From the NCBI GenBank assembly GCA_041744995.1, contig JBGTJT010000722.1, forward strand, positions 1 to 47,020: a stretch of DNA of 47,020 bases, read 5' to 3'. The notes under the pieces were generated by a model. It worked only from the letters and a program-made list of their open reading frames with translations, made no database searches and was not told the origin of the DNA. This stretch comes from Pirellulales bacterium. Lineage in GTDB: Bacteria; Planctomycetota; Planctomycetia; Pirellulales; UBA7805. Position numbers and translations under genes: made by a program. Positions 4,945-43,149 of this stretch are shown here, piece by piece. Numbering within the stretch: position 1 is the stretch's first letter; every line of letters starts with the position of its first letter.

Positions 4945-6246
4945 TTAGCTGCAAGTCGGTGGTGGCTGAACGTTGCCGCACAGACGGAATAAATCGGCAA
5001 AGTATTCCGGGTAGGTCTTTTCCGTACATGCCGGGTTGAGGATCACAATGCCCGGCACTCGCAGCCCAATCAGCGCCAAGCTCATCGCCATGCGATGATC
5101 GTGGTACGTGTTGATCTCCGCGGCCTGAAGTGGCTGGGGGACAATGGTCAGACCATCCTCATGCTCCTCAACGGCGGCTCCAACTTTTCGTAGCTCGGTG
5201 GCCAGATCGCCAATGCGGTCGGTTTCCTTGTAGCGATTGTGGGCCACGCCGCGAACCCTGGTGGGGCCTTCGGCGAACAGCGCCACCGCGGACAGCGTTT
5301 GCACAGTGTCGCTAATTGCGTTCATATCGACGTCGATTCCCCGGAGCGGGCCTCCGACGACGGTGACCGAATCCTGCGCGTAGGTGACCTGGCAGCCCAT
5401 CTGTTCCAGGCAGTCGCAGAAAGCTACGTCCCCTTGCAAGCTGTCGCGGGACAGCCCTTCCACCGTCACCTGGCCGCCGACAATTGCGGCGGCGGCCCAA
5501 AAGTAGCTGGCCGCCGAGGCGTCTGGTTCGATCGCGTAGTGGCAGGCTTGATAGGCTTGGTTGCCGGGAACATGAAACGTCTGCAAGCCCTCCGCTTCGG
5601 CGGCGACGCCAAAGCTGCGCATCACGCGCAGCGTCATCTCGACATACGGCTGGGAAACCAGCTCGCCGTCGATGTGGATCGTGGTAGCTCCCCGAGCGAG
5701 AGGCGCCGCCATTAGCAACCCGCTGAGAAATTGGCTCGACACGTCGCCGCGAATCGCCACCTCGCCGCCGGACAGCCCCCGCGCATTGACGACCACCGGA
5801 GGGCATTGATTCGCCGATTCGCATTCGATTCGCGCACCTAAGCTGTTGAGCGCATCGACCAGGTCGCCGATCGGTCGCTGGCGCATCCGCTCGACACCGT
5901 CGATACGGAAACGTCCCTTGGCAAGCGCGAGCAGCGCCGTCAGGAATCGCATGGTCGTGCCACTGTTGGCGACGAACAGTTCGGCGGCCTCCACCGGCAG
6001 CACTCCACCGCAACCTCTCACATCGACCGTGGCCTGCTGGAGATTGTGGTCAAGCGACAGCCCCAAGTCGCGCAGCGCCGCGATCATCACCCGTGTGTCT
6101 TCGCTGTCGAGCACGCCCTGCAAATGCGAGCGGCCGTCGGCGAGGGCGGCGCAGATCAGCGCCCGATTGGTGATGCTTTTGGAACCGGGCGGACGGATGG
6201 TCCCGGCCAGCGGGTCGGTGCGAACGGGAATGGCGATCTTGTCCAT
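4945..6246 (-). CDS. aroA: 3-phosphoshikimate 1-carboxyvinyltransferase (EPSP synthase)
   Basis: 433 aa. PPGSKSITNRALICAALA motif near the N-terminus, with full-length AroA-like organisation including the C-terminal DHRMAMS motif. Confidence 0.93.
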   Translation of the reverse strand: MDKIAIPVRTDPLAGTIRPPGSKSITNRALICAALADGRSHLQGVLDSEDTRVMIAALRDLGLSLDHNLQQATVDVRGCGGVLPVEAAELFVANSGTTMRFLTALLALAKGRFRIDGVERMRQRPIGDLVDALNSLGARIECESANQCPPVVVNARGLSGGEVAIRGDVSSQFLSGLLMAAPLARGATTIHIDGELVSQPYVEMTLRVMRSFGVAAEAEGLQTFHVPGNQAYQACHYAIEPDASAASYFWAAAAIVGGQVTVEGLSRDSLQGDVAFCDCLEQMGCQVTYAQDSVTVVGGPLRGIDVDMNAISDTVQTLSAVALFAEGPTRVRGVAHNRYKETDRIGDLATELRKVGAAVEEHEDGLTIVPQPLQAAEINTYHDHRMAMSLALIGLRVPGIVILNPACTEKTYPEYFADLFRLCGNVQPPPTCS

Positions 6247-6353
6247 GAAGTAAAATCCTTGGCAAGCTGAATCGGCGGGCGTAGAGAACCATTCAACTTT
6301 AATCGCATATCGGGTTCAACTACAATCAGGCTGTAAGAAAGGAACCCCGACAA

Positions 6354-7685
6354 ATGAGTCTCTCGCGACTATTCGTAATCATCCCACTCGCATTGCTTGC
6401 CCAGGTGGAACCGCCGGCGCAAGCCGAAGGACCGCCGCCTCCTCCGAATATCATACTGATTGTGGCCGATGACCTCGGCTATGGCGATCTGGGCTGCTAT
6501 GGCCGCGAGGATGTGAAGACTCCGCACTTGGATGCGATGGCCCGCGCCGGGCTGCGGTTTACCGACTTTCACTCCAACGGCGCCGTATGCAGCCCGACTC
6601 GTGCGGCCCTGATGACCGGCCGATATCAGCAGCGCAGCGGAATCGAAGGGGTCGTGACCGCCGCCGGGCATCGCCATACCGGGCTACCGCTGGACGAGAT
6701 CACCATTGCCGAGATGCTGCAAGCCGCCGGCTATCGAACCGCCTTGTTCGGCAAGTGGCATCTCGGATACGACCCCAAGTTCGGGCCGAATCAGCAAGGA
6801 TTCGACGAGTTTCGGGGATTTGTTAGCGGCAACGTCGACTACCAGTCGCATATCGATCAGGTCGGCCGCCCCGATTGGTGGCGCGACGACCAACTCGAAC
6901 CGGACGATGGCTATCTGACGGAACTTATCACCGATTACTCAGTCGATTTCATCAAGCAAAATCGCCGACGTCCGTTCTTTCTCTACTTGGCGCACGGCGC
7001 GCCGCACTATCCGATTCAGGGACCAAACGATCCCGCCATCCGCTCGCCCGGCAAGCCGAATCCGCAACAGGGCGGACGCCCCGAGTTCCTTGACGGTTAT
7101 CGACAAATGATCGAGACACTCGACGATTCGGTGGCCAGGATACGCGCGGCGGTCCGCGCCGCGGGCCTGGAATCGAACACACTGATTGTGTTCATTTCTG
7201 ACAACGGCCCCGCGGAACGGTTTGGCGGCAACGCGGGCAAGCTACGCGGCGGGAAGGGAACCTTGTACGAAGGGGGACATCGCGTACCATGCTTGGCGGT
7301 CATGCCCGGCAAAATCGCCGCGGGCGAGTCTCCTGAGACGGTCATGGGATTCGATTGGACTGCCACATTCGCGGCGATCGCCGGCGCCGGTATTTCCGCG
7401 GAAAAGCCGCTCGACGGCGTCGACTTGTCGTCGCTGCTGTTCGACGGCGAATCGCTCGCGGAGCGTGATCTCTATTGGTCCCGCGGCGTCGGTTCCACTG
7501 CCGTCCGTTCCGGCGACTGGAAGCTGATCGTGGAAAAACGCCGGGTGGAACTGTTCAACCTGAAAGACGATTTCCAAGAGGCGACGAACGTAGCCGAGGA
7601 GCATCCCGACGACGTCGATCGATTGCAGCGCAAGCTGAAAGCCTGGGAGCAGGAAGTGCGGCGGAACGTCGAGCGCCGTTCTTAG
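6354..7685 (+). CDS. Formylglycine-dependent sulfatase (arylsulfatase family), secreted
   Basis: Signal peptide followed by PNIILIVADDLGYGDLGCYG and the C-x-P-x-R formylglycine motif CSPTRAALMTGR. Also GKWHLG. Confidence 0.9.
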   Translation: MSLSRLFVIIPLALLAQVEPPAQAEGPPPPPNIILIVADDLGYGDLGCYGREDVKTPHLDAMARAGLRFTDFHSNGAVCSPTRAALMTGRYQQRSGIEGVVTAAGHRHTGLPLDEITIAEMLQAAGYRTALFGKWHLGYDPKFGPNQQGFDEFRGFVSGNVDYQSHIDQVGRPDWWRDDQLEPDDGYLTELITDYSVDFIKQNRRRPFFLYLAHGAPHYPIQGPNDPAIRSPGKPNPQQGGRPEFLDGYRQMIETLDDSVARIRAAVRAAGLESNTLIVFISDNGPAERFGGNAGKLRGGKGTLYEGGHRVPCLAVMPGKIAAGESPETVMGFDWTATFAAIAGAGISAEKPLDGVDLSSLLFDGESLAERDLYWSRGVGSTAVRSGDWKLIVEKRRVELFNLKDDFQEATNVAEEHPDDVDRLQRKLKAWEQEVRRNVERRS

Positions 7686-8284: not shown

Positions 8285-9568
8285 CTACTTCAATCGGGCC
8301 GGCTCTGACGTGCCGGAGTCGGCGGTTTCCGTGGCTTGCTCGCCTTTGTCGTAGTTGGCCCGTTGGGCGACCTTGCCGTCGGACTTCCACCAGATCCACT
8401 GCCCCGTGGCCTTGCCGGCGGTGTACTGGCCCTGGATTGACTTCAGACCGTTATCGTGCCACCAGGTCCAATCACCGTCTTGCAGACCCTGGGTATACTC
8501 GCCCGCCAGGGCTTTCTGACCGTTAGGGTGCCACCAGGTAAACGAGCCGACTGGCACGTCGAAGCGATACTCGCCCCGCATCCGTTCCTGGCCGTTGGGG
8601 TGCCACGACGTCCAAGCACCGTGCTTTTCGTCGCGGCCCTTGGTCATGAAGGGAGCGACATCGCAGACCCACCAGTCGTCGGCGCCGCTGGGAACCTGCT
8701 GGGCGTGCAAGTACATGCCGGCCGACTTTTGCGAACCGTCGTCGAACAATTCCTTTTGCAGGCCGAGCCGGCGGCCCTTGATGTAGGTGTCCTTGCCGAC
8801 CTGCTCGCCCCCTTCGCGCCACTCGGCAAGCTCGCCATCGATCTCGCCATCGCTGTATTCCATTTCTCGCATCTTTTGCCCGTCGGGATACCACCAGGTC
8901 CAGATGCCGTGACGCTTGCCGTTTTCGTAATAGAACTCGCTGGCGGTTCGCTTGCTGCTGTCGTAGATGGTCCACGCGCCGTGCAGTTCGCCATGGCGGA
9001 ACTGGGCTTGCGATACGAACGGCCCGGTGAACTTATTGTAGGGAAGCCCCTGTAGCATCGTTACTTCGCCGGGAAAAAACCAGCCAACCCATTCGCCGTG
9101 GCGCTTGCCGTGGTGGTAGTCCCCTTCGGCGATCACGTTGCCTTTGATATCCCACATTTTCCAGGAGCCGTGATTAATGTAGTTCTGCTGATCGTCCTGG
9201 ATTACGTAACGTTCGAGCTTGGTCGTGCCGTCGGGGAACCGCTCGCGAATCAATTCCGCTTCGACCTGCGGCTCGTCGCCATTCTCGACCCCGACCGGTT
9301 CCTCCACGACCGCGGCGGCTTCCTGCTCGATCGGCAGTTTGGCGGGTTCCAGGATATCGTCGTTCTCCTCGATGACCAATTCCTCGGCCAATCGAGCCGG
9401 TGCTAGCGGTTGGACGTCGACCAGCTCGCTCCCCTCGTTGAACGAGACGGTGACGATCGGCGGCGGCCCGAATGTCGAAATTAACGGAGACGACGCCTCT
9501 TCCGCACGGGCAACCGTCCAATGGCAGCAGGCGGCGAACGTGGCGGTTAGGATCAAATGGCGGTTCAT
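8285..9568 (-). CDS. Secreted MORN/YwqK-type repeat protein
   Basis: Signal peptide (MNRHLILTATFAACCHWTVARA), an acidic linker, then about 9 repeats of the G-x-W-x-x-W/Y-x-x-G pattern (e.g. KRHGIWTWWYPDGQK, KHGAWTSWHPNGQE, GSFTWWHPNGQK, DGDWTWWHDNGLK, TGQWIWWKSDGK). Confidence 0.8.
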   Translation of the reverse strand: MNRHLILTATFAACCHWTVARAEEASSPLISTFGPPPIVTVSFNEGSELVDVQPLAPARLAEELVIEENDDILEPAKLPIEQEAAAVVEEPVGVENGDEPQVEAELIRERFPDGTTKLERYVIQDDQQNYINHGSWKMWDIKGNVIAEGDYHHGKRHGEWVGWFFPGEVTMLQGLPYNKFTGPFVSQAQFRHGELHGAWTIYDSSKRTASEFYYENGKRHGIWTWWYPDGQKMREMEYSDGEIDGELAEWREGGEQVGKDTYIKGRRLGLQKELFDDGSQKSAGMYLHAQQVPSGADDWWVCDVAPFMTKGRDEKHGAWTSWHPNGQERMRGEYRFDVPVGSFTWWHPNGQKALAGEYTQGLQDGDWTWWHDNGLKSIQGQYTAGKATGQWIWWKSDGKVAQRANYDKGEQATETADSGTSEPARLK

Positions 9569-9651: not shown

Positions 9652-9667
9652 TGGCACGACCCGCGCA
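9652..9667 (+). promoter_or_regulatory. Sigma54-type -24/-12 promoter candidate
   Basis: TGGCACGacccGCGCAT has correct GG-N10-GC spacing and a perfect -24 TGGCACG. It is in the divergent intergenic region, about 255 nt upstream of ATG 9921. Confidence 0.3.
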
Positions 9668-9920
9668 TTCGCTACATCTTCAACATCGGCGCACGGCGGT
9701 GCCGACTTTACCGGTTTTGTGGGCAATTTAGCTAGGACGCGGAGAATGGTTCGCTTGCGGAGGACAGTTTTGCTTGACGAACCGCCGTCAACAGCAAAGG
9801 ATAGTAATTAGGCCCCGCGCCGCGAGGTGACGTCGCCTCGCTATTCGTATGCTTTGTCCGCGGCGAGCCGCACTGAACCGCTCATCTTTCCAATCACCGC
9901 AATCGCTTGGAGTCTTCGGC

Positions 9921-11327
9921 ATGCGTACTTGCAATCCGGTTAAGCAAGCCCTTCGTGACACCTTCGTTCCAACAGTGGCAGTAGTCTGTCTGCTGTCTGG
10001 CATGCTGGCCGTGGCGGCCGCCCAGGAGCCGTCGCCGGCGGAACCGGCGGTCGAAGCCGAAACATTGTTGCCGGAAGCGGAGAATCCTGATTCGCTCCAG
10101 GCGATGACCAACAAGTATCCACAGATCGCTGAAGCGGTTAAGAAGTTCGAAGCGCGTCAGTTCGACGAAGCGCTCGCGCTGACGGAAGCCGCCGCCGACG
10201 CCCACCCCGAATTGCCCCCTGGCGAAACGGTGATGGCCAGCCTGCACTTTGCCGCACGCGACTTGGCCGGCGCGATTCGCATGCTGGACAAGGCGGTTCA
10301 GAACCATCCGGGTGAGCCATCGGCGTATCTCGATTTGGGCAACATTGCCATTTTGCAAAACCGCCTCACCGACGCGACGTTGCTGTTCGATAAAACTGCC
10401 GAGGTGCTCGAAACGTTTGACGACAACGCGGAACGCAAGCGGAAGGCCGCCGATCGCCTGATGAAGGGCTGGGCCTCGCTGGCGGAAAGAAAAGATCAAT
10501 GGGCCGACGCCGAGACGCACCTCACCGCGTTGGCGGCGAGCGAACCCGATGCCGCCGACGTGCAGGTGCGCCTCGCCCGGGCGATGTTCCGCAACAAGAA
10601 GTATAAGCCCGCCTATGAGATGATGCAGGCAAGCGCCGCGGTCAAGGAAGCGGGCGTATCGCCGGAACTGGCCATGGCGCAGTTCTATTCCGAGATGCAA
10701 GACGACGAAAGCGCCCGCAAGTGGATTGACTACGCCATCCGCCAACAACCAGAGAATCTGCAAGTCCGCCTGGGGGCCGTGCAGTGGCATTGGCAGCGAG
10801 GCAACGCGGAAGACGTCAAGAAGCACGTCATGAAGGCGGTGGACATCGATCCCACCTCGTTGCCGGCTCGCATGTTGTATGGCATGTATGCGCATTATGC
10901 CGGCGACCTGGCGACGGCGGCCACGCAATTCGAGGCCGTCTTGACCCGTTCGCCCACCGATTTTGCCGCCCGAAACAACTTGGCCATGGTGCTGGCCGAT
11001 CGGGCGCAGGCCGATTCGCTCATCCGCGCGAAACGGATGGCGGAGGAGAATCTCCAGGCGGCCGGCAACAACACCGTCGCCGCGGGCACGCTCGGCTGGG
11101 CGCACTACAAACTGGGACAATTCGAGGAAGCCGCTAAATTGATGCAGGCGGTCGCCCAAGCGGGCGGATTGAACAATCGCAACAACATCTATTTCATGGC
11201 CCGCGTCGCCGACCGCGCCGGTCAACGTGAGCAAGCCGTCGAACTGCTCAAACAAGTGCTCGATCAGCCGCAGTTGTTCGAGATGCGCGGCGCCGCCGAG
11301 AAATGGCTGCAATCGATCGAGCCTTAA
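9921..11327 (+). CDS. TPR-repeat protein, secreted
   Basis: Start at ATG 9921 (MRTCNPVKQ...) gives a signal-like hydrophobic segment (VAVVCLLSGMLAVAAAQE). The rest is Ala/Leu-rich helical repeats with TPR spacing (AxxxFxxAL..., YLDLGNIAILQNRLTDATLLFDKT...). Confidence 0.75.
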   Translation: MRTCNPVKQALRDTFVPTVAVVCLLSGMLAVAAAQEPSPAEPAVEAETLLPEAENPDSLQAMTNKYPQIAEAVKKFEARQFDEALALTEAAADAHPELPPGETVMASLHFAARDLAGAIRMLDKAVQNHPGEPSAYLDLGNIAILQNRLTDATLLFDKTAEVLETFDDNAERKRKAADRLMKGWASLAERKDQWADAETHLTALAASEPDAADVQVRLARAMFRNKKYKPAYEMMQASAAVKEAGVSPELAMAQFYSEMQDDESARKWIDYAIRQQPENLQVRLGAVQWHWQRGNAEDVKKHVMKAVDIDPTSLPARMLYGMYAHYAGDLATAATQFEAVLTRSPTDFAARNNLAMVLADRAQADSLIRAKRMAEENLQAAGNNTVAAGTLGWAHYKLGQFEEAAKLMQAVAQAGGLNNRNNIYFMARVADRAGQREQAVELLKQVLDQPQLFEMRGAAEKWLQSIEP

Positions 11328-11337
11328 GACTGACAGG

Positions 11338-12093
11338 CTAGAAGTCGAGATGTTCCGGCAACACGATTTCCGATTCTTCCGCCAGGGCGGCTCGCTCGAT
11401 CACTTCCATCAGTTCGGCCACATTGCCGGGCCAGTGGTAACTGTTGAGGATTCTCAGCGTTTCGGGAAGAAACCGCTTGTGCCGAATGCCGAATTCTTCG
11501 CAAACACGCTGCATGAAATAGTCCGCCAGCGGCTGGACGTCCTCGCGCCGTTTGGTCAGCGGCTCGATTCGCAGCGAGACTTCGTCGAGCAAAGTGTATA
11601 GCTCCGGGATCAGACGGCGATCGAGCACCTCTTTTTGCAGATCGACGCGGGTCGACGACACAATGCGAAACTCGACGTCGACCGGTTTGCGTCCGCCGAC
11701 GGGAATGACCCTGTTGTCGTGCAGCACCGCCAGCAGCGACTTTTGCAGTTCCGCCGGCAAGGCGTCGACCCGGCCGAGAAACAGGGTGCCTCCGTGTGCC
11801 GCCCGCAAGGCGCCCAGGCCGGGCGCTTTCGCGCCGGCAAAGGCGCCTGCTTCGTGACCAAACATTTGCGCGGCGAATACCTGTTCGGTAAGTTGCGAGC
11901 AGTCGATCGGCACGAACGGGGCGGCGGCTCGGGGGCTGGCGTCGTGAATGCGATGAGCCAGAAAACGCTTACCGCCGCCGGCCGGCCCGGTAATCATTAC
12001 GTTGTAACGGTAGCGAGCGACCTGCGCCACTCGGCAGCGCATCGCTTCGGCGTAGGCGGACGTGCCCACGATCGTTTCCGCCTTGGCGTCCAT
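11338..12093 (-). CDS. Stand-alone sigma54-interaction (AAA+ EBP central) domain protein, degenerate, with no sensor or DNA-binding domain
   Basis: 251 aa. Walker A GPAGGGKR. GAFTGA loop present as GAFAGA (FGHEAGAFAGA). The expected GTLFLDEI Walker B reads GTLFLGRV. RIVSSTRVDL and WPGNVAELMEVIERA are typical of NtrC-family central domains. The protein ends about 15 aa after that motif, so there is no HTH, and it starts about 10 aa before the AAA+ core, so there is no receiver/GAF/PAS domain. Confidence 0.8.
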   Translation of the reverse strand: MDAKAETIVGTSAYAEAMRCRVAQVARYRYNVMITGPAGGGKRFLAHRIHDASPRAAAPFVPIDCSQLTEQVFAAQMFGHEAGAFAGAKAPGLGALRAAHGGTLFLGRVDALPAELQKSLLAVLHDNRVIPVGGRKPVDVEFRIVSSTRVDLQKEVLDRRLIPELYTLLDEVSLRIEPLTKRREDVQPLADYFMQRVCEEFGIRHKRFLPETLRILNSYHWPGNVAELMEVIERAALAEESEIVLPEHLDF

Positions 12094-12152
12094 GGTGATT
12101 GATCCGAGAGGAATGCTCCGTACCCCTTCATCCTAAAGGTTCGACAAAGAAT

Positions 12153-12187
12153 GGAAAACGGCACGACCGGCGGCCGTGCCGTTTTCC
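12153..12187 (-). terminator. Intrinsic terminator candidate
   Basis: Perfect 13-bp stem GGAAAACGGCACG / CGTGCCGTTTTCC with a 9-nt loop, 25 nt beyond the stop at 12212. On the minus strand it is followed by ATTCTTTGT. Confidence 0.6.
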
Positions 12188-12211
12188 TGATTTAAGGGAC
12201 AACCATAGGGT

Positions 12212-12760
12212 CTAGAAGCGGAGACGGATGCCGCCCCATTCACCGCCAATCTGGAACACGCCGCCCGTTTGAGGCCGAGGGCTTCGATCCCAGCCTCCGC
12301 CTGGCTGAACGACGACCACGCCGCCGTGACCGTGCCGCACGCGGTGGACATGTTTGGGTCGCGCCCGCAGCAGTTGTTCCGCCCGGATGGCGTCCGCCAC
12401 ATGGCCGGCGGCATGATCCAGTTCGGAGTATCTGCCGGTCAGGATGAAGGTGCGGACGTCGATCTGTCCCAGGTCGAGATACTGTTTCGCCCGGTTGCTC
12501 TCAAGGTCGCGGCTGGCGACACGCAATTCTCCCAGTGCCCGGTTGGCATACAGTCGCGCCAAGGCCGGCGCGCGTCGGGCCTGGTATGCTTTCTCCATGG
12601 CGTCCAAGGCATGGATCATGTGAGTCTCCGCGGCGAATCCGTGCCGCTCGCCTCGGTGTCCATAATGAACGTGGGCGGCACTGGCTGGGGCGACGGCAAG
12701 CCCGACCCCAACGGCGACTATGGTCGTCAACAAGACAATACGAAGGTTGCGAGGAAACAT
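12212..12760 (-). CDS. Small His-rich secreted protein (182 aa), hypothetical
   Basis: ATG 12760 is preceded by AGGAGA with an 8-nt spacer. Signal peptide MFPRNLRIVLLTTIVAVGVGLAVAPASA. His clusters HVHYGHRGERHG and HVHRVRHGHGG. The Gly-rich C-terminus ends in GGVFQIGGEWGGIRLRF. Confidence 0.65.
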   Translation of the reverse strand: MFPRNLRIVLLTTIVAVGVGLAVAPASAAHVHYGHRGERHGFAAETHMIHALDAMEKAYQARRAPALARLYANRALGELRVASRDLESNRAKQYLDLGQIDVRTFILTGRYSELDHAAGHVADAIRAEQLLRARPKHVHRVRHGHGGVVVVQPGGGWDRSPRPQTGGVFQIGGEWGGIRLRF

Positions 12761-12831
12761 GGGTCTTTCTCCTGTTTGCAAGTAGTGATTGCCAGTGCGA
12801 ACGGCATTGGCGTGCTTCGCAAGGCACTATT

Positions 12832-12847
12832 AGCGACCGGCGTGCCA
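12832..12847 (-). promoter_or_regulatory. Sigma54-type -24/-12 promoter candidate (TGGCACGccggTCGCT)
   Basis: Minus strand 12847->12832 reads TGGCACGCCGGTCGCT, against the consensus TGGCACG-N4-TTGCW. There is one mismatch in the -12 element and the GG-N10-GC spacing is exact. It lies about 70 nt upstream of ATG 12760. Confidence 0.5.
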
Positions 12848-13007
12848 ACTCGGCTGCAGGTGGACCAGTAACACTATGCAAGCTGCTTCGTGAAAACGAC
12901 TTAACGAGCAAAACGCCGAGAGGAGAAATGCACTTTTGAGGACAGAATTGTCCCGCGTGTGCGATCGAAGTGATGGCGCTGCTATCGTTTCGACAACAGC
13001 ACTTGGG

Positions 13008-14324
13008 TTAGATTGCGTTGCGCAGCGACATCGTTTGTGGCAGAGAGGTTGCCAGATGTTGGACCAGACGCCGCCAGCTTTGTGGCGAGCCGGGCGTTAA
13101 ACGGCCGAGCACCCGCGGCGTCTGGGCGCCGGTGGTGCCTGGGTGATTGGCTGGAACTTGCTCCAAGTGCAGCAACGCCAACAGCGCCGCGCAGACGCCT
13201 TCCAGCACGTCATCGGAGTAACCCATGCCGGCGCAGCGCGTGTATATCGGCTGGTAGCCACCCTTATCTGCAACTCGTGAGGCAATCTCGCGAAGCAGCA
13301 TGCCGTTGGCCTGGCCGCCGCCTGACAGGAGAACCTCGTCGATCGGCGGATCGCGCGGCACATGCCGCTCGATGGCCAGCGCCACCGATTCGGCGATGAA
13401 GTGGGTGGCGGTGCATAGCAGATCGCGAACCGACCATCCGGAGGCGACCGCCATCCGGATCGACTCGTTCAGTTCCGCCTCGGGTTTTACGCCCAGTGGG
13501 TACCATCTTGGCGGCGGCTCTTGAAAATAGGGAGCGGAAAGCCAGTGGTCGATCAGATCGGGAATCTTGCGACCCTGAACGGCCAGCGAACCGCCCGGAT
13601 CGTAGGGATACTGGCCGTTGGTAAGCTGCCGCGCCAGCCGGTCGGTGAGCACCGTGCCGGGGCCAACGTCGAACGAGAGGATGGAACCGGCGGCCCGCGG
13701 CAGCGCGGCGGGCGGCAGGTAAGTCAGCCGTGTGGTACGACCGAGATCAAGCAGCAGCCGGGTCTTTTGCGGACTGCGAAACAGCATCCAGTATGGCAGG
13801 GCGAGTAAAGGTCCGCCCTGTCCCCCGCCCGCCAGATCTCGCTTGGCAAAGGCATCGATGCAGTTCAAGCCGGTGCGTTCGGCCAACCAGGCGGCGTCGC
13901 AGATGCACTCATATCCGGCAGCGGCGCCCGGCTCGAAGAACCACAGGCCAGGGTCGACCACGCCAATTGCCAGGATGCCGTCGGCCGGCAAGTTTGCCTC
14001 GGCAAGCATGGCGTTGATCAATTCCGCGGCGGCGTTGGCGACGTGCTTGGCCAGTGTGGCATGTTCGGCGGCGCGAACTGCGCCGCTACTTCGCAGGCGT
14101 CGAAACAAAGCCGGCACATCGTCGGTCAATTCAGCACTGCCGCTGACGAGCAAATCGACGCTCGACTCCAAACCGCCTGCCTCGGCGGCCACAACGGCGC
14201 CTTGAATCCGTCCACAGTCGCTGCTGACGCGCAACCCGGCGATTCGCAAGCGGGTCGCGTCGGCGAGCCGCTTGCGGTCGAGCGTCACCGCAACTTGCGG
14301 CGGCTGGCTTGCCGTGAGCGACAT
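13008..14324 (-). CDS. anmK: Anhydro-N-acetylmuramic acid kinase-like protein
   Basis: AnmK-family landmarks are present: DLAGGGQGGPLLALPYW (cf. D.A.GGQGAPL.P), FDVGPGTVLTD (cf. FDTGPGN), YDPGGSLAVQG, LLSGGGQANGMLL. The N-terminal GL.SGTS.DG motif is divergent (GLRVSSDCGRIQG). The start is ambiguous: ATG 14324 chosen, ORF-track start is 14387. Confidence 0.7.
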   Translation of the reverse strand: MSLTASQPPQVAVTLDRKRLADATRLRIAGLRVSSDCGRIQGAVVAAEAGGLESSVDLLVSGSAELTDDVPALFRRLRSSGAVRAAEHATLAKHVANAAAELINAMLAEANLPADGILAIGVVDPGLWFFEPGAAAGYECICDAAWLAERTGLNCIDAFAKRDLAGGGQGGPLLALPYWMLFRSPQKTRLLLDLGRTTRLTYLPPAALPRAAGSILSFDVGPGTVLTDRLARQLTNGQYPYDPGGSLAVQGRKIPDLIDHWLSAPYFQEPPPRWYPLGVKPEAELNESIRMAVASGWSVRDLLCTATHFIAESVALAIERHVPRDPPIDEVLLSGGGQANGMLLREIASRVADKGGYQPIYTRCAGMGYSDDVLEGVCAALLALLHLEQVPANHPGTTGAQTPRVLGRLTPGSPQSWRRLVQHLATSLPQTMSLRNAI

Positions 14325-14454
14325 TTTGGAACCGCTTACAGGCAGCGGTCGCAACGGTTTTGCCGCGGCGGGTCGTCCTTGGCCCATCGCCCCATTCTCC
14401 GCGGATTCAAGGGAATTGTCATAGCGGTAGTACCGACTGGCGAATGCCCGCCAA

Positions 14455-16911: not shown

Positions 16912-18429
16912 TTACTTGGTGCTGGCGACCATCGTGTTCTGCACCGCCGCCAGCGGCACGCAGGCATCGCCGTCATGGGCCAACGCGGCGACCGAACCTG
17001 GCTGACGCGTCGCTTGGAGAGCGCCATCGGCGCGGGCCAATAGCGACTCGGCGTTGTCGCTGGGCAAGTACTCAGCCAAGCCCAGTCGGATGGAGAGCAT
17101 GATTTCTTCATCCCCCAGCGGCAGTCGGCAGGCTGAGATGGCATCGAATACCCGTGATGCGATCACCCGTGCTCCGCCGAGCGGTGTGCCGGGCAGCATC
17201 GCGGCGAAGGTCGCCTTACCGTAGCTGGTAACCTGATCCATTTCGCGGAAGGCCGAGCCGAGGAACTCGCCGACCGTTTTCATTACCTGCTGCGACAACT
17301 CCTGTCCGAAGCGAGCTTCGACATCCTTGTAGTTGGATATCTCCACGAGCAAGATCGATAAATTGCCGTTGAAGCGGTGACATTCGGCGACGCGGCGTTT
17401 CAAGTCGGAACGAAATTGACTCTGCGACGGCACGATGCGGCGGGCGTCCTCTTGCGGCTCTTGCTGGGGCGGGTTGGCCTCGGTGCGCGCTTCGGGCTGC
17501 TTCAGATCGGAAATCGGCCGCGACCTCTCGCCATCGTGATAGGAGGCGCGGTTGCGGCCGGCTTGCTTGGAAAAGTAAAGCGCCTCGTCGGCACGGCGAA
17601 TGAGTGACGCAGGATCGTCGCTCGGCAAGATCTCGGCCAACCCCTCGCTGGCGGTTACCTTCAGATCCTTATCATTAAAGCGGACCGTGACTCCCTCGAT
17701 GGCGCGCCGCGCGCGCTCCGCGCCGACGGCGCCCTCGGCGGCAGTCGTGTCGGGCATGACGATCGCGAACTCCTCGCCGCCATAGCGGCACACGATGTCC
17801 ATATCGCGCATCGATTGCAGCAGCGCGGCGGCGACCTGACGTAGCACCTCGTCGCCCGCCTGGTGGCCGTGCGTGTCGTTGAATTTCTTAAAGTGGTCGA
17901 CGTCCAGCAGCACCAGGCAGTGCGGCCGTCCGCGGCGCTGCCACTCGGCGTAGCGACGCGCCAAGGCGTCGTCGAATCCGCGGCGATTGGTCAGATTCGT
18001 AAGCTGATCCGTGCGCGCGTCCAAGGCGTGCGTTTCGAGCTCCTTGGCCTGGGCCGCCAGTCGATGTTCGGCATTGTGCAATTGCGATTGCAACTGCTCG
18101 TTGGCACTGATCAACTGTGCCAAACTGGCGAGTACCACCTGTTCCGATTGCGTGGCGCCGTCGCCGCCGCACTCCAGTTGTTGATTGATCCGTAGCACCT
18201 GAATGTGATGCTCCCCCACGTCCGCAGCGACACTGTTGGCCAACTCCTGCAACCGCTCCAGCGATTCTCGGGCCTGGTCTTTCAGCCGTTCGGCGTCCTC
18301 GGTGCGCATCGGAACTCGGCTTCGCAACCACCAGCCGAGTACTCCGCCCAATGCCAGCACCGTTGCGGCGATGGCCGTATTCAAGAGAACCGCTATCACA
18401 GAGGCTGCGTCGAGTGCCATGATTGTCAC
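16912..18429 (-). CDS. Membrane-anchored diguanylate cyclase with one active GGDEF domain (GGEEF, RxxD I-site) and a second degenerate GGDEF-like domain
   Basis: N-terminal TM helix followed by a coiled-coil region. Domain 1: LTNRRGFDD, LLDVDHFKKFNDTHGHQAGD, RDMDIVCRYGGEEF, ADEALYFSKQAGRN. Domain 2 has the same architecture, but DxD reads VEISNYK, GGDEF reads YGKATF and the tail reads ADGALQATRQPG. Confidence 0.88.
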   Translation of the reverse strand: MTIMALDAASVIAVLLNTAIAATVLALGGVLGWWLRSRVPMRTEDAERLKDQARESLERLQELANSVAADVGEHHIQVLRINQQLECGGDGATQSEQVVLASLAQLISANEQLQSQLHNAEHRLAAQAKELETHALDARTDQLTNLTNRRGFDDALARRYAEWQRRGRPHCLVLLDVDHFKKFNDTHGHQAGDEVLRQVAAALLQSMRDMDIVCRYGGEEFAIVMPDTTAAEGAVGAERARRAIEGVTVRFNDKDLKVTASEGLAEILPSDDPASLIRRADEALYFSKQAGRNRASYHDGERSRPISDLKQPEARTEANPPQQEPQEDARRIVPSQSQFRSDLKRRVAECHRFNGNLSILLVEISNYKDVEARFGQELSQQVMKTVGEFLGSAFREMDQVTSYGKATFAAMLPGTPLGGARVIASRVFDAISACRLPLGDEEIMLSIRLGLAEYLPSDNAESLLARADGALQATRQPGSVAALAHDGDACVPLAAVQNTMVASTK

Positions 18430-21467: not shown

Positions 21468-21723
21468 GTTGCCTGGGCGGCGAATGGCCGCCGCATGAAC
21501 CGACTTCAATGTCAATTCGCCGCATCAATTTGATACTCGTCGAGACCGGCCGCGCACTGTTCGCGGGGATCGGTCGACTCCGTTCATTTATTGTAACGAG
21601 CGGCTCGCATAATGCACGCAAATTACCAGCAAATAACTGGTTGGGCCATTTGTCCAAGTCCGCCTGTTTCGCCTGACCGTACCTCTGGAGGCAACAGACA
21701 CCAGTCGAATGCTTCGTCAGCAC

Positions 21724-23112: not shown

Positions 23113-23160
23113 GAGAAACCAAGTTGGCGCGAGCTTTGGGGGCATGCCGTCGGCTTGCTT

Positions 23161-23181
23161 GCCGAAGCTGGCAGCTTCGGC
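23161..23181. other. 21-nt perfect palindrome in a divergent intergenic region
   Basis: GCCGAAGCT-GGC-AGCTTCGGC (9-bp arms), 49 nt upstream of the enolase-superfamily start codon and upstream of mrpA on the other strand. Confidence 0.4.
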
Positions 23182-23357
23182 AACGACGACCGGTAGCTTC
23201 GGGCATGACCGGTGGAATGCGTGTTCATGGTACACGTCCCGGCGGGGGTTGCAAGCGTCACTACCTTCATGCAGCATTGGCAGGTTTATTGAGTTGCGAT
23301 ATCATCGGGCATACTCAATTTTGCCCACCCGATGAACTCGCAGCCGAGAGCCACTCC

Positions 23358-25676
23358 GTGCTTCAGGTGATCCTCGCATTTTTTGGTCTCGGCCGCGCCG
23401 ATGCGCGTTCGCGCAAGCAGTTCCGGCTGGTGCTGCGCTGGCTGGCGCCGTTGATTGCGCTGGGGTTGTTCATCTACTTCGCCCGGTTTGTTCCCTTGGT
23501 GGCCGCCGGGGAGCGATTCGTGGTACCGTTGCCCTGGGAGGCGACCGTCGGCGGGGTCGCAGTCTCGCTCGACCTGCTGATTGACGGGCTGTCGTTGCTG
23601 TTCGCCCTGATCGTTTCCGGAATTGGTTGCCTGGTGTTCCTTTACGCCGGGAGCTACATGGGGGACGACGAACGTTCGGCGCGGCTATTTCTCTGGTTGC
23701 TGGCGTTCATGGCCTCCATGTTGGGATTGGTGCTGTCCAGCAACCTGTTCGGCATGTTCCTGTTCTGGGAACTCACCGGCATCACCTCCTACATGCTGAT
23801 CGGATTCAACCAGGACGAAGAAAGCTCGCGCGCCTCGGCGCTGCAAGCGCTGCTAGTGACCGGCGTTGGCGGTTTGGCGTTGTTGGCCGGTTTCACCATG
23901 CTGGCGGTAATCGGCGGCGGCTCCGACGTGGTGGACCTGCGGCAATCAGCGGCGGCGATTGCCACCTCGCCGCTGTACATTCCGATGATCGCCTTGATCC
24001 TGCTGGGCGCTTTCACCAAGAGCGCCCAGTTTCCGTTTCATTTCTGGTTGCCTGGGGCGATGGCCGCTCCCACGCCGGTGAGCGCCTATCTGCATTCGGC
24101 GACGATGGTCAAGGCCGGCATCTTTCTTGTCGCCCGGCTGAATCCCGTCACTGGCGACACGACTGCCTGGATCGCTACTATCACCATCGTCGGCACGGCC
24201 ACCGCCTTGGTCGGCGGCTGGCTTGCCTGGCAGCAGAGCGATTTGAAACGGATCCTCGCCTACTCGACCGTCAGCGCCTTGGGAATGATCATGGCGCTGC
24301 TGGGCGTCGGTTCGCCCCTGGCGGTCAAGGGAGCGCTCACGTTTCTGCTAGCCCACGCCTTGTACAAAGGCGCGTTGTTCATGGTCGCCGGCAGTGTCGA
24401 CCATGGCAGCCACACTCGCGACATCAATGAACTGGGCGGATTGATCAAGAAGATGCCGTGGACGTTCGCCGCCGCTGCAATGGCCGCGGTGTCGCTCGCC
24501 GGACTGCCTCCGACGATGGGCTTTCTTGGCAAGGAAGTCGATTTCGAGGCCGCGCTGGAAACCGAGTATGCCCTATGGCTGACCTCCGCCTTGATGGCGG
24601 CCAGCGTCGGCTTCGTCGTGGTGGCCTCGCTGGTGGCCATCCGGCCGTTCTTCGGCACGGCGACTGCCGCGGCGGCAGACGCCCACGAATCGCCACCCAC
24701 AATGCTGGTGGGGCCGCTGCTGCTGAGCGGTACGGGTCTCGGTCTGGCTTTCTACGCGGGTTGGTTCGGAGAAACATTCATTTCGGCCGCCATGAGCGAG
24801 ACGCTAGGCACGCCGCACGTCGCCAAGTTGGCGCTGTGGCACGGCGTGAACACGCCGTTGTTGCTTAGCGCCGGCTCATTCGTAGTTGGACTAGTACTCT
24901 ACGCGATGCGCGATCGGCTGTTGTCGGCGGCCGCCCCCTTCGGAGTGCTCGCCGCGATCGGCCCCGCAGCCGGTTATCGGGGGATGCTCGCCGGGCTGAA
25001 ATGGTTTGCCAACGCGCAAACCCGAGTGATTCAAAACGGCCGGTTGAGCATCTATATCCTTTGTATCGGCATAACATTAATCACATTGTTGGCCGCCTCG
25101 TGGTGGTTCCGCGTCGGTACGATCGAAATGGCCGATGGTCCGCGGGTGCAACTCTACGAGCTGATGATCTGCGGCATGATGTTGGCCGCGGCGATTTTTG
25201 TCACCAAGACAGGTTCCCGACTGGCGGCCATCTGCCTGCTCGGTTCGGTCGGCTACGGTATTTCGATCGTGTTTCTGCTATTCGCGGCGCCCGATCTGGC
25301 CATGACTCAATTGGCCATCGAGACCTTGACGGTCATTTTGTTCGTCTTCGTGCTGTACCGATTGCCGCGGTTCAAGCGGTACACCTCCACCGCCGTGCGG
25401 GCGCGGGACGGCTTGATCGCGATCGGGTTCGGCACGATCATGGCGGTGCTGGCGTTCAGCGTGGCCGAACACGCCATCGACCCGTCCGAGAAGGAGCTGA
25501 CGGACGGCATCAATCGGATGGCCTACCCGGAGGGGCGCGGGCGCAATGAAGTGAACGTGATTTTGGTTGACTTCCGCGCGCTCGACACGCTCGGCGAGCT
25601 AACCGTACTGTCGGTCGCCGCCATTGGTATTCTCGCGCTGTTGCGGCTGCGGTTGGGGGAGGAGCGCGAAGCATGA
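23358..25676 (+). CDS. mrpA: Mrp/Mnh-type cation:proton antiporter subunit A (NuoL-like, with the usual C-terminal MrpB-like domain)
   Basis: [45 protein letters not shown] and [33 protein letters not shown] are NuoL/MrpA hallmarks. The C-terminal ...[19 protein letters not shown] is the MnhB-like segment. Start uncertain: GTG 23358 proposed ([11 protein letters not shown]...). ORF-track start 23124 would nearly abut the divergent gene. Confidence 0.88.
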
Positions 25677-26080: not shown

Positions 26081-26081
26081 C

Positions 26082-43011: not shown

Positions 43012-43021
43012 GCGGGGGGGA

Positions 43022-43098: not shown

Positions 43099-43128
43099 GG
43101 CTGGGATAGAATTGGCATCGAACATCAG

Positions 43129-43149
43129 CCGGAAGGCGCTAGCCTCCGG
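43129..43149. other. Imperfect hairpin in the adaptor-pump spacer
   Basis: CCGGAAGG-CGCTAG-CCTCCGG (7 bp with one bulged A). Confidence 0.35.

What the first reader, a model, noticed from the sequence alone, without database searches (positions are those of the whole stretch)
11338..12847. Near-consensus sigma54 promoter, His-rich secreted mini-protein and an orphan degenerate enhancer-binding-protein-like AAA+ gene
Seen in sequence. (a) Minus strand 12847->12832 reads TGGCACGCCGGTCGCT. It differs from the sigma54 consensus TGGCACG-N4-TTGCW at a single -12 position, with exact GG-N10-GC spacing, and sits about 70 nt upstream of an ATG (12760) with a strong AGGAGA ribosome-binding site. (b) That gene encodes a 182-aa signal-peptide protein with two His clusters (HVHYGHRGERHG and HVHRVRHGHGG) and a Gly-rich tail ending in IRLRF. 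(c) A 13-bp-stem terminator follows. (d) The next gene encodes only a sigma54-interaction AAA+ core of 251 aa. It has no N-terminal sensor or receiver domain and no C-terminal HTH. Its GAFTGA loop reads GAFAGA, and the Walker B position (consensus GTLFLDEI) reads GTLFLGRV, so both acidic residues needed for ATP hydrolysis appear to be missing while Walker A (GPAGGGKR) is kept. Established knowledge: bacterial EBPs need ATP hydrolysis and the GAFTGA loop to remodel sigma54 holoenzyme, and EBPs lacking a DNA-binding domain exist (e.g. Helicobacter FlgR, Chlamydia CtcC) but are catalytically intact. Inference: this may be a non-hydrolysing EBP paralogue, acting as a regulator, an anti-activator or a subunit of mixed hexamers, linked to a sigma54-dependent envelope or metal-related gene.
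Basis: partly seen in the sequence, partly recalled or inferred. Interest (0 to 1): 0.7.

Follow-up and report, generated by a model that had tools for sequence, protein, structure and literature searches.

The report
Catalytically dead sigma54-activator paralogue family
A small planctomycete gene encodes a conserved copy of the motor domain of a sigma-54 transcription activator that has lost its ATP-hydrolysis residues, its sigma-54 contact and any DNA-binding domain, so it probably regulates an intact sister activator rather than switching genes on itself.

Summary
All four observations are in the sequence, and the 251-aa protein is more degenerate than reported. Besides GAFTGA->GAFAGA and Walker B DE->GR, it has lost the Glu after the Walker A Lys, the sensor I Asn, both arginines of FRxDLYYRL and the sensor II Arg. 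It has no HTH.

It is neither an orphan nor a decaying gene. Eighteen clusters of 251-260 aa proteins from uncultured Pirellulales-type planctomycetes share these losses, and dN/dS is 0.10-0.16.

The conserved neighbour is a convergent PrsT-like TPR gene (12 of 13 loci), not the His-rich gene (4 genomes). An exosortase-family gene lies upstream in 6 loci. The closest intact relatives are activators with no N-terminal domain (AAA+ plus HTH). All four examined lie beside PEP-CTERM genes, and one shares a MAG with a family member.

The sigma54 motif is not significant by match alone. In a relative with 49% intergenic identity, however, all 12 specified positions are kept and all 4 spacer bases differ, so it is probably real.

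Best reading (inferred): a pseudo-ATPase that modulates the intact paralogue through mixed rings. This is a new variant of a known kind and moderately interesting.

The parts
11338..12093 (-). 251-aa catalytically degenerate EBP-like protein with no DNA-binding domain (AAA+ core plus lid only). Member of a Pirellulales-type family of 251-260 aa proteins.
   Evidence: PF00158 at 155.6 bits plus PF25601, no HTH. Motif losses by alignment to FlrC and to intact planctomycete EBPs. AF2 pLDDT 85.8, and Foldseek top hits are EBP AAA+ domains with TM 0.75-0.88. dN/dS 0.10-0.16.
12153..12187 (-). Intrinsic-terminator-like hairpin plus T-rich tail between the His-rich gene and the EBP-like gene.
   Evidence: The scan counts 16 pairs, 10 of them G-C. 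The stem AAAACGGCACGAC...GTCGTGCCGTTTT is also present in L004 and L084.
12212..12760 (-). 182-aa secreted His-rich protein. It has a signal-peptide-like N-terminus, a His-rich N-tail, a predicted four-helix core (residues 40-133), a variable (HG)n tract and a conserved Gly-rich C-terminus ending IRLRF.
   Evidence: Reading frame shown by substitutions at codon positions 13/7/37 and 4/7/28. dN/dS 0.11-0.20. Only 4 clusters exist in 5.8 billion proteins. AF2 model. No family hit.
12768..12773 (-). AGGAGA ribosome-binding site of the His-rich gene.
   Evidence: Read from the sequence. The block ACTTGCAAACAGGAG is the only stretch meeting the conservation threshold used (at least 11 of 12 columns invariant) across four genomes.
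12832..12847 (-). Probable sigma54 promoter TGGCACG-CCGG-TCGCT (-24 GG, -12 GC), 71 nt upstream of the ATG.
   Evidence: It is identical in L004 and L005 although the ~75 nt upstream are diverged. In L084 it reads TGGCACG-TGCC-TCGCT: 12 of 12 specified positions kept and 0 of 4 spacer positions kept, at 49% intergenic identity.
12965..12999 (-). Conserved upstream block CTGTTGTCGAAACGATAGCAGCGCCATCACTTCGA, about 120-150 nt upstream of the -24 element. It is a candidate activator-binding site (UAS).
   Evidence: Partly conserved (CTGTnnTCnnAAnGATnnnAGCGCnATCAnnTCGA) in L084, where the upstream gene is different: Dabb instead of AnmK. The motif GATNNNAGCGCNATCA taken from it matches nowhere else in the window. 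Its function is inferred.
9849..11327 (+). Convergent TPR-repeat envelope protein (492-aa ORF; the true start is probably the ATG at 9921). It is the family-wide conserved neighbour of the EBP-like gene, ending 10 nt from it tail to tail.
   Evidence: TPR Pfam hits. The best NCBIfam hit is PrsT TIGR02917 at 2.2e-25, but 88.7 bits is well below its 312-bit cut-off. It is present in the same convergent position in 12 of 13 family loci with enough flank.

Best explanation
The 251-aa gene encodes a conserved pseudo-ATPase. It is a paralogue of the planctomycete sigma54 activators that lack an N-terminal domain (AAA+ plus HTH). It has kept the AAA+ fold and the Walker A lysine. It has lost the HTH, the sigma54-contacting GAFTGA threonine, the Walker B Asp-Glu, sensor I, both arginines of the arginine-finger helix and the sensor II arginine.

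Shown: it cannot be a working activator as these are understood, it is under purifying selection, and it belongs to a discrete family.

Inferred: it acts by joining the ring of its intact paralogue. That paralogue lies next to PEP-CTERM secreted-protein genes, so it looks like the planctomycete counterpart of PrsR. A subunit with no arginine finger and no Walker B would create two defective ATP sites per insertion and contribute no sigma54 contact. The most likely effect is therefore damping, as an anti-activator for an activator that has no regulatory domain of its own. An obligatory structural-subunit role, as for FleT or HrpR/S, is the main alternative.

In this lineage the gene lies behind a terminator, downstream of a single-gene unit for a secreted His-rich protein with a probable sigma54 promoter. 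Read-through would then couple its level to sigma54 output. That last step is speculative.
For: - Homology and architecture: PF00158 plus the AAA+ lid only. The structure model matches FlrC, NtrC1, FleQ and PspF AAA+ domains.
- Motif losses: the same in 18 of 18 family members, while 7 intact relatives keep every motif. The GAFTGA region varies freely within the family, which indicates no constraint for sigma54 contact.
- Selection: dN/dS 0.10-0.16, with substitutions at codon positions 14/6/63.
- Discrete family: members score 367-438 bits and the next protein 279-302 bits.
- Closest intact relatives (P0012, P0014, P0131, P0146): AAA+ plus HTH with no N-terminal domain. All four loci carry textbook PEP-CTERM genes, 10 in total. 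The same regex finds none in 14 family loci or in the window.
- Same genome: P0012 and family member P0002 both come from MAG GCA_021413585.1.
- Family neighbourhood: an exosortase-signature gene (TIGR04178, 26.9-31.9 bits in the four scored against a cut-off of 23) lies upstream in 6 loci, and a PrsT-like TPR gene is convergent in 12 of 13.
[quoted passage not shown] HrpR/HrpS form hetero-hexamers. An inactive partner inhibits RedR hetero-oligomers (PMC10084136). T->A in GAFTGA abolishes activation, and activators without an N-terminal domain are controlled in trans (PMC3105312).
Against: - No interaction, oligomerisation or nucleotide-binding data exist.
- Co-occurrence with the intact paralogue is shown for one MAG only.
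- The family is not adjacent to PEP-CTERM genes or to any intact EBP in any of the 14 loci.
- No sigma54-type promoter precedes the gene outside the His-rich lineage.
- The conserved TPR partner is convergent, so it is not co-transcribed. TPR similarity to PrsT is far below that family's cut-off.
- HrpS AAA+ alone did not interact with HrpR, and its oligomerisation determinants were assigned to the HTH domain (PMC3105312). An HTH-less protein may therefore not enter rings easily.
- rpoN was not confirmed for this genome.
Confidence: 0.45

Rival explanations
1. It is an obligatory, non-catalytic structural subunit of a hetero-hexameric activator (a co-activator, like FleT with FleQ or the HrpR/HrpS pair). 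It would be needed for ring assembly or stability rather than for inhibition.
For: FleT lacks the N-terminal domain and the HTH and is needed with FleQ at most promoters. HrpRS hetero-hexamers tolerate catalytic mutations in HrpS (PMC10084136; PMC3105312). The family keeps a strongly conserved, family-specific version of the inter-subunit helix, DLQKEVQxRRLLPELYxLLD.
Against: In HrpRS both GAFTGA loops are required (PMC3105312), whereas here the loop is unconstrained. Loss of the arginine finger would cripple the neighbouring site in any ring. No tandem or adjacent arrangement with an intact EBP was seen in 14 loci.
Confidence: 0.2
2. It has been repurposed away from transcription. It would be a nucleotide-binding (not hydrolysing) cytoplasmic scaffold or switch that works with the neighbouring envelope module (exosortase-family membrane protein, FtsH, secreted TPR and MORN proteins), for example in protein sorting or quality control.
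For: Family-wide synteny is with TPR (12 of 13 loci), an exosortase-like gene (6 loci), FtsH (7 loci) and MORN, not with any EBP, rpoN or PEP-CTERM gene. The Walker A GxxGxGK motif is kept in 17 of 18 members while everything specific to sigma54 is lost.
Against: The TPR and MORN proteins have signal peptides and the EBP-like protein has none, so direct contact would need a membrane partner. Convergent gene order is weak evidence of shared function. No EBP-clade AAA+ protein is known to work outside transcription (my own knowledge).
Confidence: 0.2
3. It is a decaying pseudogene-like remnant of an EBP with no function.
For: Every catalytic motif is lost and both flanking domains are absent.
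Against: dN/dS is 0.10-0.16. The ORF is intact, 251-260 aa long, with the same substitutions in 18 clusters that are only 45-53% identical to the window protein. There are family-specific invariant residues, and synteny is conserved.
Confidence: 0.03
4. The TGGCACG-N4-TCGCT site is a chance match and the His-rich gene is transcribed from another promoter type.
For: A one-mismatch consensus match is expected 1.68 times per window. The -12 element is TCGCT rather than TTGCW. rpoN and a cognate activator are not confirmed for this genome. No transcription start site data exist.
Against: It is intergenic, correctly oriented and 71 nt from the start codon. All 12 specified positions are kept and 0 of 4 spacer positions are kept against L084, at 49% intergenic identity. 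The site is invariant in L004 and L005 next to a diverged stretch. TGGCACN5TYGCW occurs in only 5 of 84 loci (roughly 0.9 Mb), and 3 of those are the homologous sites. No sigma70-like promoter was found in 11000-13300. The same TCGCT variant precedes a PEP-CTERM cluster in L089.
Confidence: 0.2

Closest known systems
FleT of Rhodobacter (Cereibacter) sphaeroides, the partner of FleQ
   Same: An EBP-family protein made of the AAA+ central domain only, with no N-terminal regulatory domain and no HTH. It is believed to act through hetero-oligomers with a DNA-binding EBP (PMC10084136, citing Poggio 2005).
   Different: FleT is a positive co-activator. To my knowledge it keeps the catalytic and GAFTGA motifs; this was not tested here. 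The planctomycete protein has lost all of them and is not encoded next to its presumed partner.
HrpR/HrpS hetero-hexameric EBP pair of Pseudomonas syringae
   Same: Paralogous EBPs without an N-terminal domain, in which partial degeneration of one paralogue produced subunit specialisation. The hetero-hexamer tolerates catalytic mutations in one partner. Control is in trans (PMC3105312).
   Different: Both Hrp proteins keep their HTH domains, working sigma54-contact loops and native ATPase motifs, and they are encoded in tandem. Here the degeneration is complete and the gene stands alone.
GAFTGA-less EBP homologues that act at sigma70-type promoters (VpsR; TyrR; Rhodobacter and Caulobacter NtrC)
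   Same: A Sigma54_activat-type AAA+ domain that has lost the residues for sigma54 contact and, in VpsR, for ATP hydrolysis (PMC6158489 abstract; bioRxiv 10.1101/2023.06.06.543975 abstract).
   Different: All of these keep a DNA-binding domain and usually a sensory domain, and they act as DNA-bound regulators. The protein here has neither domain.
PrsR/PrsK/PrsT regulatory module of the XrtA/PEP-CTERM exosortase system (Haft 2006, PMC1569441)
   Same: A sigma54-family AAA+ protein associated with a TPR protein and an exosortase-family gene. The intact planctomycete relatives sit beside PEP-CTERM genes. PEP-CTERM-type targets are single-gene units behind long intergenic regions that carry a sigma54 motif about 71 nt from the start codon, which is the layout of the His-rich gene here.
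   Different: PrsR is a receiver-AAA+-HTH response regulator with a PrsK kinase. Here there is no receiver, no HTH and no kinase. The TIGR02915 score is 184 against a cut-off of 502 bits, and the TPR scores 88.7 against 312 for PrsT. The His-rich protein has no PEP-CTERM signal.
ZraP/CpxP/Spy periplasmic His-rich helical proteins (zraP is sigma54/ZraR-dependent in E. coli; my own knowledge)
   Same: A small secreted helical protein with His/Gly-rich N- and C-terminal tails, expressed from a probable sigma54 promoter.
   Different: There is no Pfam or NCBIfam match even at E<=10. The predicted fold is a generic four-helix bundle with no significant PDB match. This is an analogy only.

Membership tests
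Bacterial enhancer-binding protein (functional sigma54 activator) | Sigma54_activat AAA+ domain (PF00158) with an AAA+ lid | tested here: met
   155.6 bits against a cut-off of 20.2, residues 8-174. AAA_lid_14 scores 68.6 bits. Foldseek TM is 0.75-0.88 to FlrC, NtrC1, FleQ and PspF.
Bacterial enhancer-binding protein (functional sigma54 activator) | GAFTGA L1 loop with the sigma54-contacting Thr (present in >97% of EBPs, PMC3105312) | tested here: not met
   The loop reads GAFAGA. It lacks the Thr in 18 of 18 family members and varies among them (GAFAAA, GAMPAA, GGIAGV, ESFARL and others).
Bacterial enhancer-binding protein (functional sigma54 activator) | Walker B hhhhDE for ATP hydrolysis | tested here: not met
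   GGTLFLGRV aligns to GGTLFLDEI. The pair is [GAS][RNHQ] in 18 of 18 family members and DE in 7 of 7 intact relatives.
Bacterial enhancer-binding protein (functional sigma54 activator) | Arginine finger and sensor arginines (FRxDLYYRL; WPGNVREL) and the sensor I Asn | tested here: not met
   The sequences read LIPELYTLL, WPGNVAEL and SST. The same losses occur across the family.
Bacterial enhancer-binding protein (functional sigma54 activator) | Walker A GxxGxGK[ET] | tested here: inconclusive
   GPAGGGKR: the glycines and the Lys are kept, and the Glu after the Lys is Arg or Gln in all members. Nucleotide binding is possible but not testable here.
Bacterial enhancer-binding protein (functional sigma54 activator) | C-terminal HTH (HTH_8) for enhancer binding (usual, not universal) | tested here: not met
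   The protein ends 1 residue after the lid domain and has no HTH_8 hit. All family members end within about 10 residues of the lid.
Bacterial enhancer-binding protein (functional sigma54 activator) | ATP-dependent remodelling of the sigma54 holoenzyme | not testable with these tools
   This needs biochemistry.
Sigma54-dependent promoter | -24 GG and -12 GC with exact spacing and a match to the extended consensus | tested here: met
   TGGCACGCCGGTCGCT matches 11 of 12 specified positions and is the best site in the window.
Sigma54-dependent promoter | More than a chance occurrence | tested here: met
   Not by match alone (1.68 expected per window). Conservation supplies the support: 12 of 12 specified positions kept and 0 of 4 spacer positions kept against L084 at 49% intergenic identity. 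Position and orientation are also right (71 nt upstream, intergenic).
Sigma54-dependent promoter | rpoN and a cognate activator in the same genome; a mapped start about 12 nt downstream of the GC | not testable with these tools
   The window has no rpoN and no intact EBP. No transcript data are available.
PrsR (PEP-CTERM-box response regulator, TIGR02915) | Equivalog score, with receiver + AAA+ + HTH architecture | tested here: not met
   184.4 bits against a cut-off of 502.6. Only the AAA+ part aligns, and several other EBP models score higher.
PEP-CTERM/exosortase system neighbourhood | Exosortase-family gene adjacent | tested here: inconclusive
   An exosortase-like gene lies upstream in 6 of 14 family loci. 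The four that were scored pass the TIGR04178 cut-off; L006 and L007 rest on tblastn similarity (32-34% identity). It is absent next to the window gene and from the whole 47-kb window.
PEP-CTERM/exosortase system neighbourhood | PEP-CTERM substrate genes nearby | tested here: not met
   There are none in the window or in the 14 family loci, against 10 in the 4 loci of intact relatives.
ZraP/CpxP/Spy family (for the His-rich protein) | LTXXQ / Metal_resist profile match or the corresponding fold | tested here: not met
   No Pfam hit at E<=10. Foldseek against the PDB gives no match at E<=0.001, and the top hits are generic four-helix bundles. The model has low confidence (pLDDT 59).

The most novel reading that the evidence does not exclude
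Planctomycetes of this lineage use a dedicated, genetically encoded 'ring-poison' subunit as the trans-acting anti-activator of a sigma54 activator that has no regulatory domain of its own. The subunit is a dead AAA+ paralogue with no arginine finger, no Walker B, no sigma54 loop and no DNA-binding domain. The activator would control the PEP-CTERM/exosortase surface-protein regulon. The role played elsewhere by unrelated inhibitors (PspA, HrpV, NifL, FleN) would here be filled by a pseudo-enzyme copy of the activator itself.
Probability: 0.3. Interest if true: 0.7.

Novelty: new variant of a known kind. Interest (0 to 1): 0.52.

Why it matters
EBPs are the standard example of ATP-driven transcription activation. 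Their known controls are cis regulatory domains or unrelated trans inhibitors. A conserved, selected EBP paralogue stripped of every catalytic, sigma54-contact and DNA-binding element would add a pseudo-enzyme mode of control to this system, acting as either a dominant-negative or a structural subunit.

It would also give a natural test of how many live subunits an activator ring needs. It links sigma54 regulation in Planctomycetes to the poorly understood exosortase/PEP-CTERM surface-protein system. Finally, it flags an annotation problem: these proteins are currently labelled 'sigma 54-interacting transcriptional regulator' or 'DNA-binding NtrC family response regulator', and the sequence contradicts both labels.

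Tried and rejected
- Pseudogene decay. Rejected on dN/dS 0.10-0.16 and family-wide conservation.
- The antisense ORF 12269..12871(+) as the real gene. Rejected on the codon-position substitution pattern, although it stays open in all three genomes and my GC3-based picker chose it.
- The His-rich protein as a ZraP/CpxP/Spy member. No profile hit at E<=10 and no significant fold match.
- The His-rich protein as an exosortase substrate. It has no PEP-CTERM signal.
- The His-rich and EBP-like genes as a conserved pair. This holds in only 4 genomes; elsewhere the upstream gene is exosortase-like or a divergent RluA-type pseudouridine synthase.
- A known RNA element in the leader or elsewhere. There are no Rfam hits in the window, and the leader fold is not significant (z = -1.48).
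- A sigma70-like promoter in 11000-13300. None was found.
- rpoN or an intact EBP in the window. None was found among 36 ORFs scanned.
- Sigma54-type sites upstream of the EBP-like gene in other family loci. None scored 11/12; the few 10/12 hits were not examined further.
- A second sigma54-like site at 9652-9667(+), upstream of the TPR gene. It scores only 10/12, it is altered in L004, and the whole spacer is conserved, so it carries no information.
- Specific affiliation to PrsR. The NCBIfam scores do not single it out.
- Literature searches for a described family of this kind. None was found.
Full report
**1. What is in the sequence**

The region 11338-13010 lies on the minus strand. In transcription order it holds six elements.

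- The end of an AnmK gene (13008..14387).
- A 250-nt spacer.
- The motif TGGCACGCCGGTCGCT (12847->12832).
- An AGGAGA ribosome-binding site and a 182-aa ORF (ATG at 12760, stop at 12212).
- A hairpin with a T-rich tail (12187..12153).
- A 251-aa ORF (12093..11338). It ends 10 nt from the stop codon of a convergent TPR gene (9849..11327).

The window has 61% G+C. It is closest to an uncultured Pirellulales MAG, JBBDLY010000514.1, at 96% protein identity. A Logan contig, L004, is the next closest relative (92% protein identity).

**2. The 251-aa protein**

Pfam finds Sigma54_activat (155.6 bits, residues 8-174) and the AAA+ lid (residues 181-250) and nothing else. There is no HTH_8, receiver, GAF or PAS domain. 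NCBIfam matches only the central parts of many EBP equivalogs, all far below their cut-offs.

GAFTGA is GAFAGA, and the DE of GGTLFLDEI is GR. The alignment adds four more losses:

| Motif | Intact EBPs | This protein |
|---|---|---|
| Walker A | GKE | GKR |
| Sensor I | AAT[NH] | SST |
| Arginine pair | FRxDLYYRL | LIPELYTLL (both Arg lost) |
| Sensor II | WPGNVREL | WPGNVAEL |

The Walker A glycines and lysine remain.

The AlphaFold2 model is confident (pLDDT 85.8, pTM 0.81). Its best PDB matches are all EBP AAA+ domains, with TM 0.75-0.88. The fold is therefore intact while the machinery for hydrolysis, inter-subunit catalysis and sigma54 contact is gone.

From the literature, the GAFTGA threonine is present in more than 97% of EBPs and T->A abolishes activation. 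Walker B and the sensor II Arg are critical for hydrolysis (PMC3105312).

**3. It is a family, not an orphan and not a relic**

Searches of 5.8 billion proteins with the single sequence and with a family profile give a discrete set:

- P0001-P0011 and P0125-P0129, all 251-260 aa.
- They score 367-438 bits against the family profile.
- The best protein outside the family scores 279 bits in that search.

A search of the 1.84-billion representative set adds P0225. There the best single-domain outsider, P0012, scores 302 bits. With the window's own protein the set makes 18 clusters. All named sources are uncultured Planctomycetia, Pirellulales or Planctomycetales MAGs.

All 18 aligned members carry the same classes of loss. 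The GAFTGA position is free to vary (GAFAAA, GAFPGA, GAMPAA, GGIAGV, ESFARL, GAVSTA and others). Other segments are family-specifically conserved, for example DLQKEVQxRRLLPELYxLLDAVSL.

Between the window and three relatives, dN/dS is 0.10, 0.12 and 0.16. Substitutions fall 14/6/63 on codon positions 1/2/3. This is purifying selection on a protein that cannot be a conventional activator.

**4. Gene neighbourhood**

I compared 14 family loci.

- *TPR gene.* The constant feature is a convergent TPR gene of about 470-520 aa. It occurs in 12 of the 13 loci with enough flank, usually followed by a MORN-repeat protein gene.
- *Exosortase-like gene.* In six loci (L001, L006, L007, L085-L087) the upstream genes on the same strand are FtsH and then a 279-356 aa membrane protein.
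  - In the four that were scored (L001, L085-L087) this protein passes the exosortase/archaeosortase signature TIGR04178 (26.9-31.9 bits against a cut-off of 23).
  - It shows the Cys, Asn-x-x-Arg and His pattern of that family.
  - The L006 and L007 copies were identified by tblastn similarity only (32-34% identity).
- *Pseudouridine synthase.* In three loci the upstream gene is a divergent RluA-type pseudouridine synthase.
- *His-rich gene.* Only the window, L004, L005 and L084 have it.

The TPR protein's best NCBIfam hit is PrsT of the XrtA/PEP-CTERM system (2.2e-25). This is about 11 orders of magnitude better than the next model, but 88.7 bits is far below the 312-bit cut-off, so it is a lead and not membership.

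**5. The intact relatives**

The nearest intact proteins (P0012, P0014, P0131, P0146) are AAA+ plus HTH_8 EBPs with no N-terminal regulatory domain. The three closest (P0012, P0014, P0131) share the GPSGTGKEL Walker A and an FxSQLFGH signature with the family; P0146 carries GETGVGKEV.

All four of their loci contain textbook PEP-CTERM genes, with ends such as ...VPEPSTWVLGLVGLAGLGLVAYRRRRA. There are ten such genes in total. The same regular expression finds none in the 14 family loci or in the 47-kb window.

P0012 and family member P0002 come from the same MAG, GCA_021413585.1.

Haft et al. (PMC1569441) described the proteobacterial PEP-CTERM/exosortase system. [quoted passage not shown] Its PEP-CTERM genes are mostly single-gene units behind long spacers, with a sigma54 motif about 71 nt from the start codon.

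The planctomycete AAA+-HTH clade therefore looks like the local counterpart of PrsR. The dead family looks like a derived paralogue that stayed with the exosortase/TPR side of the system. This is inference from association.

**6. The sigma54 site and the His-rich gene**

By match alone the site is not significant. A consensus match with one mismatch or none is expected 1.68 times per shuffled window. The support comes from context.

- It is the best site in the window. It is intergenic, correctly oriented and 71 nt from a start codon with a strong ribosome-binding site.
- It is invariant in L004 and L005, next to about 75 nt that are heavily diverged.
- In L084 the His-rich protein is 59% identical and the upstream gene is different. 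The site there reads TGGCACG-TGCC-TCGCT. All 12 specified positions are kept and all 4 spacer positions differ. The spacer region as a whole is 49% identical, and 41% upstream of the site.
- A second conserved block, CTGTnnTCnnAAnGATnnnAGCGCnATCAnnTCGA, lies about 120-150 nt upstream and is a candidate activator site. A motif taken from it matches nowhere else in the window.
- The same TCGCT -12 variant precedes a receiver gene that heads a PEP-CTERM cluster in L089.

I rate the promoter as probably real, at about 0.8. Neither rpoN nor a cognate activator could be checked for this genome.

The His-rich ORF is the true frame and is under purifying selection (dN/dS 0.11-0.20). It is nearly an orphan, with four clusters worldwide, and has no family hit.

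The AlphaFold2 model has low confidence overall (pLDDT 59; the core reaches 65-86). It shows a four-helix core at residues 40-133, between disordered His-rich tails. The PDB matches are non-significant generic four-helix bundles. The (HG)n tract differs by +17 and +19 residues in two relatives. Metal binding is plausible from composition only.

**7. Mechanism**

*Shown.*
- The protein is an EBP-fold protein lacking every residue class needed for hydrolysis, trans-activation of a neighbouring site, sigma54 contact and DNA binding.
- It is selected and it forms a family.
- Its nearest intact relatives are activators without an N-terminal domain, encoded beside PEP-CTERM genes.
- One such relative co-occurs with a family member in one genome.

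*Inferred.* It enters the ring of that paralogue. Activators of this architecture have no regulatory domain of their own and are controlled in trans (PspA for PspF, HrpV for HrpS; PMC3105312, PMC10084136). A subunit with no arginine finger and no Walker B would disable two ATP sites per insertion and offer no sigma54 loop. Damping is therefore the most economical effect.

*Precedents for EBP hetero-oligomers.* These include FleQ/FleT (FleT also lacks both the N-terminal domain and the HTH), HrpR/HrpS and RedR1/RedR2, where an inactive partner inhibits (PMC10084136).

*Caution.* The HrpS AAA+ domain alone did not bind HrpR (PMC3105312).

*Rivals.* The alternatives are a required structural subunit, or a nucleotide-binding scaffold working with the exosortase, FtsH and TPR envelope module.

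*In this lineage.* The gene follows the terminator of the sigma54-driven His-rich unit. Read-through feedback is possible but speculative.

**8. Verdict**

The object is a new variant of a known kind: a conserved pseudo-ATPase subfamily of the EBP AAA+ family. I found no description of it in the searchable literature.

It is currently mis-labelled in databases as a sigma54-interacting or DNA-binding regulator. Interest is moderate. The degeneracy and the exosortase/PEP-CTERM link are both unexpected, but the mechanism is untested and pseudo-ATPase subunits are known in other AAA+ families.

Noticed in passing
P0226-P0245; sequences of P0226 and P0231: Many proteins of 500-1000 aa carry two or three tandem sigma54-type AAA+ domains. 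In some, one domain is degenerate. P0226 domain 1 has no Walker A Lys and no GAFTGA, and reads FIDSV. P0231 domain 2 reads GKL, has no GAFTGA and reads LLDDV. So dead and live EBP modules are found fused in one polypeptide.
   Followed up: partly
L041, L044, L060, L064 (Bremerella spp., Planctomycetales bacterium 10988, Blastopirellula marina DSM 3645), around 5550-7040: A receiver-AAA+-HTH protein conserved in cultured Pirellulales has non-standard motifs. The GAFTGA position reads PNALAGA, PNAMPGV or AGAFPGA. Walker B is LLEE or LIEE instead of DE. The sensor II region is WPGNVAELR. This is a separate, partly degenerate EBP-like family that keeps its DNA-binding domain.
   Followed up: no
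window 12269-12871 (+): A 200-aa ORF antisense to the His-rich gene stays open in the window and in two relatives, and it has gene-like GC3. A GC3-based picker chose it over the real gene. The codon-position substitution pattern shows it is not the coding frame.
   Followed up: yes
window about 12300-12340 (-), His-rich protein residues about 139-147; L004 4600-4680; L005: The His-Gly tract of the secreted protein varies in length between close relatives (+17 and +19 residues, for example HGHGHGHAHKPDHGRHGHG). In L084 it is replaced by HDHHHHHHG. This is a fast-evolving low-complexity metal-binding-like segment.
   Followed up: partly
window 9652-9667 (+): A second sigma54-like site, TGGCACGACCCGCGCA (10 of 12), lies in the MORN/TPR divergent spacer about 250 nt upstream of the likely TPR start at 9921. 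It is altered in L004 (AGGCACA...), and the whole spacer is conserved, so the comparison is uninformative.
   Followed up: partly
window 8285-9568 (-) compared with L001, L003, L010 and L085-L087: The MORN-repeat gene next to the TPR gene is on the opposite strand in the window, L004 and L005 compared with the other family loci. This points to a local inversion in this lineage.
   Followed up: no
window 12940-12954 (-), just after the AnmK stop: A small hairpin, GGGACAATTCTGTCC, shows a compensatory A-T to G-C change in L004 (GGACG...CGTCC). It may be a weak terminator or RNA element of the AnmK transcript.
   Followed up: no
L089 2132-5740; L090 8269-12090: In Lacipirellulaceae and related MAGs, a sigma54-like site (TGGCACACGCTTCGCT in L089, TGGCGCACTGATTGCT in L090) precedes a small stand-alone receiver gene. 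That gene is followed by 2-3 PEP-CTERM genes and lies next to an EBP without an N-terminal domain. This may be the layout of the planctomycete PEP-CTERM regulon.
   Followed up: partly
window 16912-18429 (-), 18843-21515 (-), 23124-28042 (+), 39514-44501 (-): Other content of the window: a protein with two GGDEF domains, a Ser/Thr kinase of 890 aa, an Mrp-type multisubunit cation/proton antiporter operon and an RND efflux pair. The 47 kb hold no rpoN, no intact EBP, no exosortase and no PEP-CTERM gene.
   Followed up: yes
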